From positions 54,126,001-54,190,000 of the forward strand of contig NC_042999.1 in NCBI RefSeq assembly GCF_006345805.1: a stretch of DNA of 64,000 nucleotides, in the 5' to 3' direction. The notes under the pieces are model-generated. The model was not told the origin of the DNA. It ran no database searches and was given only the letters and a program-made list of their open reading frames with translations. This document shows positions 2,380 through 2,940 of this stretch, in pieces. The translations under genes were made by a program, and so were the position numbers. Numbering within the stretch: the first letter of the stretch is position 1; each line of letters starts with the position of its first letter. Source of the stretch: Octopus sinensis (lineage: Eukaryota).

Positions 2380-2940
2380 TCAGAGGTGCTTTGTAGCAAT
2401 TAGAAACTGCGAGGGATATTCAGAGGTTTTACAAGCTCTTCTAAATCCCTCACAATACTGGAAACCCTTCTATCTCATCAGCAGGATTTTCAGAGTAACA
2501 AGCGTTTCGCCCCTTAACCTGTATACTTCAACTGAGTGGAGCATCAAGGACTGAGCTAGTGTTTAGCTACGGAAGGGTACCAGTTGCTGCCTATTACCAA
2601 CTATAATCAACCAACCTGAGCCAGTTTCAGTTGCCGTACCTATTTCCTTGATAGCTTTCTTCAGTTGTCAGGGTTCCAGATCTATCTTCTGCAGGAAATA
2701 GCGCACTGATCTTGATGGAAAGCCGCAGTAGCCGACTTCGATGGGGAATGAGGCCGCATGCCATCCTTTGACAAGGATCTATATTATTAACCAAATCGAA
2801 TTTATGTGTAACCCTTCCAGTGCCGGAAATATAAGTACCACCAATTGTAAACCTCATCTTTATAGGGACTTTAAGTGGTTCAGTTGTAACTGTTAAACTT
2901 GCTTTAACATGATAATCGTAATTTAACATTTACAGCGAGT
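2380..2940 (-). mobile_element. HERO-like RLE LINE, internally deleted 3' fragment plus 3' UTR (a second family)
   Basis: Minus strand encodes GWHAASFPIEVGYCGFPSRSVRYFL...KKAIKEIGTATETGSGWL, homologous to [10 protein letters not shown] in the 12.2-17.0 kb element. The MRFTIG segment resembles its RT. Confidence 0.75.
2457..2584 (-). ncRNA. Candidate permuted/pseudoknotted hammerhead ribozyme, degenerate copy, in a HERO-like 3' UTR
   Basis: Order: outer helix acugguacccuuc, II guccuu, III' aaguaU-A, I caggu, II' aaggggc, GAAA, III cgcuu, I' auccug, CUGAUGA, outer' gaaggguuuccagu. Confidence 0.5.

What the first reader, a model, noticed from the sequence alone, without database searches (positions are those of the whole stretch)
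2457..2584. A second, divergent HERO-like 3' UTR repeats the same permuted hammerhead layout with different stem sequences
Seen in sequence (minus strand), after a different HERO-like RLE tail (FPIEVGYCGF): outer helix acugguacccuuc/gaaggguuuccagu; stem II guccuu/aaggggc-GAAA; stem III aaguaU-A17 / GAAA-cgcuu, with one C-A mismatch consistent with CpG decay of aagcgua; stem I cagg/ccug-CUGAUGA. The helices share no primary sequence with the 16.9-kb copy, yet order, core nucleotides and most pairings are kept. This is within-window support that the fold is conserved rather than chance. This copy is in the sense orientation of the SLC17 gene, ~4.3 kb past its stop, so an active version could cut read-through transcripts (inference).
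Basis: partly seen in the sequence, partly recalled or inferred. Interest (0 to 1): 0.8.

Follow-up and report, generated by a model that had tools for sequence, protein, structure and literature searches.

The report
Rewired hammerhead in HERO retrotransposon tails
The tail of this decayed jumping-gene copy carries the letters of a hammerhead ribozyme wired in an unusual order, a fold kept with compensating base changes across many divergent HERO-like retrotransposon families; in intact copies it likely cuts and re-joins the element's RNA into a circle-like template, while this copy is probably dead.

Summary
The motif is real: the descriptor hits this copy and the 16.9-kb copy, against 3 hits in 100 shuffled windows. 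It also hits 43 of 80 tails of related RLE retrotransposons chosen by protein alone, and 0 of 4000 shuffles. The core order matches type-SGC hammerheads, but the A9-G10.1 link is broken by two flush helices, and a k-turn often bends stem III. All helices covary across 19 clusters (mean identity 55%). In the young sister family, all 28 intact 5' ends follow the element's own 3' end. Five of 17 local 5' breakpoints sit exactly at the predicted cut, although other single-base piles exist. Best reading: a new hammerhead topology serving a Penelope-like cut-and-rejoin cycle in HERO-like LINEs; cleavage is untested. This copy has broken pairs in four helices and a broken k-turn, and nothing supports cutting of SLC17 read-through. 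The scan met what looks like the same motif in two other genomes (e1-8034208, e1-7941993) and judged it non-cutting; the displaced stem II found here weakens that argument.

The parts
2362..2781 (-). 5'-truncated copy of old HERO-like RLE retrotransposon family A (end of the endonuclease ORF plus 3' UTR)
   Evidence: extent shared with other copies; 40 scored of 425 candidates, 73-81% identical apart from itself
2556..2772 (-). remnant of the RLE C-terminus; the family's stop TAG at 2558-2556 lies in the loop of hairpin H, so the ORF runs through the P0 5' strand
   Evidence: 58% to L079 residues 569-623; column majority
2568..2584 (-). P0 (outer helix), 5' strand
   Evidence: 236 of 288 cells paired over the 10 proximal pairs in 29 copies
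   Evidence: 197 of 252 cells paired; flush H in 16 of 19 clusters, 1.2 expected
2538..2542 (-). stem II 5' strand, G10.1 at 2542, displaced upstream of the core
2531..2536 (-). [quoted passage not shown]
   Evidence: 146 of 171 cells paired; 2 of 6 pairs broken in this copy
2528..2529 (-). GA of the k-turn non-bulged strand
   Evidence: GA in 19 of 29 copies
2518..2527 (-). block S: stem III 5' strand 2527-2523, N17 = A2522 (predicted cut between 2522 and 2521), stem I 5' strand 2521-2518
2501..2513 (-). block G: stem II 3' strand 2513-2509, GAAA 2508-2505, stem III 3' strand 2505-2501
2489..2500 (-). k-turn bulge 2500-2498, GA 2497-2496 (G changed to U in this copy) and I* 3' strand 2494-2489
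   Evidence: GA in 24 of 29 other copies
2475..2485 (-). stem I 3' strand 2485-2482 and CUGAUGA 2481-2475
2457..2474 (-). P0 3' strand, starting directly after A9
   Evidence: P0 of at least 6 bp flush with A9 in 16 of 19 clusters, 3.2 expected
16886..16999 (+). same fold in young family B (G10.1 16918, N17 16941, CUGAAGA 16976-16982); a 6-nt bulge replaces the k-turn
   Evidence: 13 of 13 descriptor pairs; 27 of 30 copies pass
12230..17061 (+). near full-length, broken family B element that starts about 40 nt inside the 5' end
   Evidence: intact tandem relatives
6866..7063 (-). SLC17-type last coding exon (neighbour, not part of the element)
   Evidence: sialin E=1.6e-6

Best explanation
This stretch is a decayed copy of a conserved RNA fold at the 3' end of HERO-like RLE retrotransposons that holds all hammerhead core letters in S-G-C order with stem II supplied from upstream, and in intact copies it likely cuts after the NUH triplet and would re-join, giving a unit-length, circle-like template that the element's enzyme likely copies past one full turn. 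Shown: order P0-H-II-I*-III-UH-I-II'-GAAA-III'-I*'-I'-CUGANGA-P0', covariation in every helix, flush junction P0/H/II, k-turn letters, head-to-tail copies. Inferred: (1) I*, the bend and stem III form a rod whose k-turn or large bulge folds the terminal loop back to make stems I and II as two pseudoknots. (2) P0, H, II and the A9-G12 end of the core form a four-way junction; the P0-on-H stacking isomer would leave stem II stacked on the core (active), the other would not, which offers a switch. (3) After cleavage both products stay held by P0, II, I* and III, which would favour re-ligation. (4) Transcripts that run through two tails would be cut to 3.7-kb units and closed; priming about 120 nt 3' of the cut and copying round the circle would give the partial-plus-full tandems, and an unsealed nick would give inserts that start at +1. 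This copy is probably inactive.
For: Descriptor: 43 of 80 protein-selected tails, 0 of 4000 shuffles, 0 antisense, 0 in 86,069 nt of ORF. Chosen without stem II, 36 of 48 loci have a 5/5 displaced stem II starting with G (4.3 expected; 28 matches lie 20-21 nt before N17), and 5 of 48 a canonical one. 19 clusters, mean identity 55%: G10.1-C11.1 in 17, N17 never G (required by the descriptor), P0 and H flush in 16 each. MAFFT alignment of 19: 91.3% of cells paired, 15 of 19 pairs with two-sided change, slid controls 34-43%; only core letters are invariant. K-turn letters in 10 of 20 representatives (0.29 expected) and in the family A majority. Motif-bearing rows are spread across the RLE tree. 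Family B: 28 of 28 intact 5' ends follow the own 3' end through one junction (26 by at least 27 nt, 2 by 5-6 nt; 15 distinct upstream boundaries, 10 beyond the upstream cut). In 4 of 8 independent insertions the upstream piece shares most private variants with its own downstream end. 7 of 32 metagenomic tails run into a HERO N-terminus. 5 of 17 breakpoints between -15 and +24 are at +1 (uniform p=5e-5), plus three more at +1, two of them joined to internal element sequence. An extra base between A9 and G10.1 is tolerated in natural hammerheads (PMC3705267, PMC4209133, passages).
Against: No cleavage assay. Eckert et al. assumed that block C cannot be interrupted by more than 1-2 nt (PMC10085705); here two helices interrupt it. 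0 of 30 unbiased family B copies start at the cut and all run through it; no copy ends there (2 hits, both small indels); none of the 15 upstream boundaries is at +1. Other single-base piles exist (+66: 4; +36: 3; +25: 5 by script, 3 by eye), so +1 is one of about four hot spots in 84 positions. In 4 of 8 insertions the own-end signal is absent, and a tandem master locus explains head-to-tail copies without a circle. Nested folding gives stems I and II low probability (0.00-0.25) and, in families B and L102, an alternative pairing that extends the rod; the program cannot model pseudoknots. Pairing percentages for stems I-III are partly circular because the descriptor required them.
Confidence: 0.55

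Rival explanations
1. The fold is a non-cutting docking structure for the element's RT-endonuclease, as the R2 3' UTR is; it descends from or mimics a hammerhead, and the core letters are kept for folding or protein binding. Head-to-tail copies come from tandem master loci.
For: Nearly all copies run uncut through the site. The strand after A9 is locked in P0. The position matches the 3' recognition element of RLE LINEs (recalled). Breakpoint piles also occur away from the cut. Two earlier AI notes reached this view.
Against: The full set C3-U4-G5-A6-N7-G8-A9, G12-A13-A14, A15.1-U16.1 and G10.1-C11.1 is kept while N7 and N17 vary just as in hammerheads. A covarying stem II exists upstream, which removes the main argument of the earlier notes. 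Eight inserts start at +1. Binding and cutting are not exclusive.
Confidence: 0.25
2. The ribozyme cuts but does not build circles: it is a self-limiting device that removes the 3' tail of RNAs that are not being translated or bound by the element's protein, and only protected RNA is copied.
For: The stop codon lies in P0 or H in 7 of 17 representatives and in family A, so a terminating ribosome would melt the junction. Inserts at +1 would be rare copies of the cut-off tail.
Against: The stop lies before P0 in 10 of 17. It does not explain the invariant head-to-tail junction at 28 of 28 5' ends.
Confidence: 0.12
3. This copy has been co-opted by the host to cut SLC17 read-through transcripts.
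For: Sense orientation, 4.3 kb after the last exon; all core letters and stems I and II are intact in this copy.
Against: Pair 15.2-16.2 is A-C, k-turn G lost, 2 of 6 I* pairs, 2 of the first 4 P0 pairs and 2 H pairs broken; it diverges like other dead copies. No test here showed transcription across the gap.
Confidence: 0.03
4. Chance arrangement of short motifs.
For: Nested folding z-score of the window stretch is +0.55; Rfam finds nothing here.
Against: Shuffle, antisense and ORF controls and covariation.
Confidence: 0.01

Closest known systems
Type-SGC non-circularly permuted hammerhead ribozymes (HRIMA-1 and variants; Eckert et al. 2023, PMC10085705)
   Same: Order of site, GAAA and CUGANGA blocks; short linker from stem I to stem II; a helix joining the strand before stem I' with the strand after the stem II 5' side (I* here); short distance between that helix and stem III.
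   Different: There the chain starts at stem III and block C is whole. Here I* is linked on into stem III by a k-turn or bulge and the chain opens between A9 and G10.1, where P0 and H are inserted. The paper found type-SGC RNAs in metatranscriptomes and none in genomes of known organisms; these lie in genomic LINE tails.
Hammerheads in pseudo-LTRs of Penelope-like elements and non-LTR retrozymes (Cervera and de la Pena 2014, PMC4209133; Li et al. 2026 preprint 10.64898/2026.07.22.740005)
   Same: Ribozyme motif in the repeated end of a retroelement, partial-tandem head-to-tail copies, proposed cut, ligation and more-than-unit reverse transcription; extra nucleotide at 9/10.1.
   Different: Those are type I or minimal hammerheads in GIY-YIG elements; this is a pseudoknotted form in an RT-RLE element.
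HERO clade of RLE non-LTR retrotransposons (HERO-1_BF, HEROTn in the supplement of PMC7650587)
   Same: By eye, family B RT shares the distinctive stretches (QKAGxPGxPGCxEH, x[16 protein letters not shown], LPGKxKxW, RKWLG) with these two and not with Utopia, R5 or R4 rows; dispersed insertion.
   Different: No ribozyme or head-to-tail cycle for HERO turned up in my searches; no tree with named references was built.
R2 elements with a 5' HDV-like ribozyme (PMC7650587, PMC13580325, passages)
   Same: RLE element with a self-cleaving RNA that processes a longer co-transcript.
   Different: Different ribozyme class, at the 5' end, in a site-specific element; here the motif is in the 3' UTR about 120 nt inside the end.
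Kink turn (Huang and Lilley 2016, PMC5061560)
   Same: [quoted passage not shown]
   Different: Here it joins hammerhead stem III to I*; family B and relatives use a 5-7 nt one-sided bulge instead.

Membership tests
Hammerhead ribozyme | Core letters CUGANGA, GAAA, UH | tested here: met
   57 of 80 protein-selected tails have GAAA then CUGANGA
Hammerhead ribozyme | Stems I, II, III around the core, with G10.1-C11.1, supported by covariation | tested here: met
   (stem II via the displaced strand); this copy has an A-C at 15.2-16.2
Hammerhead ribozyme | A9 joined to the stem II 5' strand directly or by 1-2 nt | tested here: not met
   canonical stem II 4/4 in 0 of 19 clusters and 5 of 48 loci
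Hammerhead ribozyme | Site-specific self-cleavage after N17 | not testable with these tools
   indirect only: 5 of 17 breakpoints at +1, other piles present
Type-SGC hammerhead | Block order S, G, C with two pseudoknots | tested here: met
Type-SGC hammerhead | [quoted passage not shown] | tested here: met
   I* 85% paired, 4 of 5 pairs with two-sided change, not part of the descriptor; 18 of 19 against 11.5 expected in the looser test
Type-SGC hammerhead | Uninterrupted block C (stem I' - CUGANGA - stem II) | tested here: not met
   P0 follows A9; stem II strand lies upstream
HERO clade | Single ORF with RT followed by zinc knuckle and restriction-like endonuclease | tested here: met
   family B: RVT_1, CxxC-H-C and PD...ELT letters read; family A copies match the same C-terminal region of L079
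HERO clade | RT phylogeny groups with named HERO elements | tested here: inconclusive
   motif comparison by eye with HERO-1_BF and HEROTn; no tree with named references
Penelope-like element / retrozyme | GIY-YIG endonuclease or no ORF | tested here: not met
   RT-RLE ORF
Penelope-like element / retrozyme | Partial-tandem head-to-tail copies with the ribozyme in the repeated part | tested here: met
   family B 28 of 28; 7 of 32 metagenomic tails; not shown for family A
Penelope-like element / retrozyme | Circular RNA intermediate | not testable with these tools
   only assembled contigs were available
Kink turn | 3-nt bulge then G-A, A-G between two helices | tested here: met
   10 of 20 representatives, 25 of 43 hits, family A majority; not met in this copy

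The most novel reading that the evidence does not exclude
HERO-like LINEs carry an active hammerhead of a seventh topology (block C split by a four-way junction, stem III bent by a k-turn) and use it to cut and re-seal their RNA into protein-coding circles that are reverse-transcribed by rolling past one unit: a Penelope-like life cycle in an R2-type clade now mined for genome insertion tools.
Probability: 0.4. Interest if true: 0.92.

Novelty: new variant of a known kind. Interest (0 to 1): 0.8.

Why it matters
If it cleaves, it breaks the stated assumption that only six hammerhead permutations are possible, and it places a non-circular permutation in animal genomes in hundreds of copies. The k-turn would also answer the geometric puzzle that Eckert et al. 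left open, how distal stem III reaches the I-II helix. For retrotransposon biology it offers a testable origin for unit-length templates and head-to-tail copies in an RLE clade for which my searches found no such cycle. Anyone building HERO-based insertion templates would need to know whether the 3' module cuts. The fold is about 120 nt, so one transcription gel can decide the main question.

Tried and rejected
Rfam: no hammerhead or other relevant family in the window (63 matches, all below gathering score) or in 8 motif loci (0). Nested folding of the window stretch is uninformative (z +0.55). A canonical type-SGC stem II after A9 was rejected. Copies ending at the cut were sought and not found. 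Target-site duplications: one of 25 nt and one of 13 nt in an AT repeat among 36 copies, otherwise none clear. Ragged 3' ends extend into CTA more than chance (43 of 79, 27 of 43, 22 of 27), but this does not separate internal priming from a slightly longer 3' end, so it was not used. Sequencing runs: no RNA holder listed on record. One search shows one low-depth contig at 2286-2470 and none across the cut; not counted. Viral contigs gave no relative and prokaryote genomes one weak 14-residue match. Breakpoint and tandem tests were done on family B only; family A is too diverged for exact patterns. Rows dropped: L069 (contig ends); 44 of 82 distinct hits where the element continues upstream; 11 of 80 loci with short tails or matches. 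Weinberg et al. 2015 (PMC4509812) is not held, and Fell et al. 2025 and Repbase reports were not seen; they could describe related variants.

Full report
Observation. The stretch is the end of a 420-nt, 5'-truncated repeat (2362-2781). A genome search found 425 candidates, of which 40 were scored, 73-81% identical apart from the copy itself: an old family, here family A. The 16.9-kb copy belongs to a young family B (2324 candidates, 40 scored, 96-98%). The closest named protein to family B is from Octopus bimaculoides at 87%. A descriptor for core letters plus stems I, II and III finds exactly these two places in the window, against 3 hits in 100 shuffles of both strands. Rfam does not recognise either.

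The element. Intact tandem family B copies encode an RT followed by a zinc knuckle and a restriction-like endonuclease; the unit is 3737 nt. By eye its RT shares distinctive stretches with HERO-1_BF and HEROTn and not with the Utopia, R5 or R4 rows of a published alignment (supplement of PMC7650587, part 12 of 19). Family A copies match the same protein region of a metagenomic relative, L079. I call both HERO-like; no tree with named references was built.

The fold in family A. Column counts over 29 other copies restore every helix. Stem II is not GUCCUU: that segment is the 3' arm of a 9-bp hairpin H. The strand GCCCC (GCUCC here, 2542-2538) pairs by five G-C pairs with the strand before GAAA and supplies G10.1. 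One base later a 6-bp helix I* begins, which pairs with the segment before stem I'. Directly after A9 the chain enters the outer helix P0, whose 5' strand is the end of the ORF. The order is P0, H, II, I*, III, UH, I, II', GAAA, III', I*', I', CUGANGA, P0'. Family B has the same order with different stems.

Beyond this genome. An alignment of ten RLE C-termini fetched 80 metagenomic loci (the best 80 of 167 relatives), chosen by protein only. 57 have GAAA then CUGANGA in the tail and 43 pass the descriptor, against 0 of 4000 shuffled tails, 0 antisense and 0 in 86,069 nt of upstream ORF. To avoid circularity I chose loci by core letters and stems I and III only: 36 of 48 then have a 5/5 displaced stem II starting with G (4.3 expected), mostly 20-21 nt before N17, and 5 of 48 could form a canonical one. 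In 19 clusters below 75% identity (mean 55%; L069 dropped) every helix shows several pair types, G10.1-C11.1 holds in 17, and two features outside the descriptor recur: P0 flush with A9 in 16 (3.2 expected) and H flush between P0 and II in 16 (1.2 expected). On a MAFFT alignment of 19 chosen rows, 91.3% of cells pair and 15 of 19 pairs change on both sides; slid controls give 34-43%. Between III and I*, 10 of 20 representatives (0.29 expected), 25 of 43 hits and the family A majority have a 3-nt bulge followed by G-A and A-G, the k-turn as defined in PMC5061560 (passages). Family B and its relatives use a one-sided bulge instead. Motif-bearing rows are spread across the RLE tree of 69 rows; the lineages without it are a few long branches and decayed copies.

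Comparison with the literature. Eckert et al. [quoted passage not shown] They assume CUGANGA and its adjacent stems cannot be separated by more than 1-2 nt, giving six permutations. The fold here is that topology re-opened between A9 and G10.1. One extra base at that position is tolerated in a viroid hammerhead (PMC3705267, passages) and is typical of Penelope hammerheads (PMC4209133, passages); two helices there have no precedent in what I could search. Searches listed no paper that describes a hammerhead in HERO or other RLE 3' ends, a second type-SGC study, or a k-turn in stem III; most listed papers were seen as listings only. Passages of PMC11300833, PMC4640811, PMC13580325 and preprint 10.64898/2026.07.22.740005 were also read. 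Subscription papers, Repbase and Weinberg et al. 2015 were not available.

Does it cut? Direct evidence is lacking. Of 30 unbiased family B copies (first 30 of 434 exact matches), none starts at the cut and all end at +111 to +126; no copy ends at the cut. Three pattern searches for breaks near the site (55, 18 and 32 hits) gave 82 distinct loci, 44 of them internal indels. Of 17 true 5' breaks between -15 and +24, 5 are at +1 (uniform p=5e-5) and one inversion breaks at -1. A separate search added three more at +1, two of them joined to internal element sequence. Piles also occur at +66 (4), +36 (3) and +25 (5 by script, 3 by eye), so a fair reading is that the predicted base is one of about four hot spots in 84 positions. 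This is suggestive, not proof.

Template shape. All 28 exact matches to the family B 5' start follow the element's own 3' end through one junction: 26 by at least 27 nt and up to about 1 kb, 2 by 5-6 nt; there are 15 distinct upstream boundaries, 10 beyond the upstream cut and none at +1. In 4 of 8 independent insertions the upstream piece shares more private variants with its own downstream end than with any other; in the other 4 it does not (L276 duplicates L273). Seven of 32 metagenomic tails also run into a HERO N-terminus. This is the arrangement that Cervera and de la Pena explain for Penelope elements by cleavage, ligation and more-than-unit reverse transcription (PMC4209133, passages). 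A tandem master locus transcribed from upstream would give the same pattern, so the circle is inferred.

Mechanism. I propose that I*, the bend and stem III form a rod that folds back so that its loop makes stems I and II, and that P0, H, II and the core meet in a four-way junction whose stacking isomers could switch the core on or off. The analogy to other four-way junctions and the hammerhead's ability to ligate are recalled, not tested. Nested folding recovers P0, H and the rod but not stems I and II, and offers a rival pairing in family B. The stop codon lies in P0 or H in 7 of 17 representatives and in family A, so translation could also gate folding in some families.

This copy. It has an A-C pair next to U16.1-A15.1, a lost k-turn G, two broken I* pairs, two broken pairs among the first four of P0 and two new H mismatches. 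Only 4 of 30 family A copies pass the relaxed descriptor, against 27 of 30 in family B. The SLC17-type exon is real, but nothing here shows transcription across the 4.3-kb gap. I rate host co-option at about 3%.

Earlier notes. Two unchecked notes from other genomes (e1-8034208, e1-7941993) describe what appears to be the same motif and judge it non-cutting because the strand after CUGANGA is held in another helix. I confirm that helix (P0) but find a covarying replacement strand for stem II. I could not see their sequences.

Verdict. The fold is real and clade-wide (about 0.97). Self-cleavage in intact families is likely (about 0.65) and the circle cycle less so (about 0.4). It is a new variant of a known kind, interest 0.8.

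Noticed in passing
window 12230-12325 (+); L061 unit start; L071, L073, L077, L079, L103, L114: The 5' UTR holds 4-5 short hairpins with the loop GAAAGA (GGAAAGAC closed by 4-5 bp). The same 8-mer follows the tail in 6 of 38 metagenomic loci and is absent from 86 kb of ORF; possibly protein-binding repeats.
   Followed up: partly
L175, L176, L182, L209, L237: Internally deleted family B derivatives of about 1 kb keep both ends; L175, L176 and L182 also keep the head-to-tail junction, and L209 and L237 join the 5' region directly to +1 of the cut. They resemble retrozyme-like non-autonomous units.
   Followed up: partly
L213, L215, L219, L224, L225, L233, L245, L256, L260: Recurrent small deletions that remove the stem II 5' strand and the I* strand of family B, apparently at short repeats beside hairpin H.
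   Followed up: no
L214 (G000:C2:10643184-10643320): An inverted insertion in which an antisense tail is joined to the sense tail at -1/+1 of the predicted cut.
   Followed up: partly
L080 tail: A relative with all stems but UUGAAGA in place of CUGANGA; decay or a natural C3U variant.
   Followed up: no
window 3209-3290: Long inverted repeat within a frequent transcribed-looking repeat (about 3083-3370) just upstream of the family A copy; MITE-like.
   Followed up: no
window 33379-34950 (+): Another RT ORF of 523 aa with weak RVT_1 and zf-RVT matches.
   Followed up: no
window 55384-55520: Near-perfect long hairpin or palindrome.
   Followed up: no
window 1560-1760 (-): tRNA-like SINE copy; similar copies lie near 9000-9300, 9700-10050 and 10850-11300; family name not checked.
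   Followed up: no
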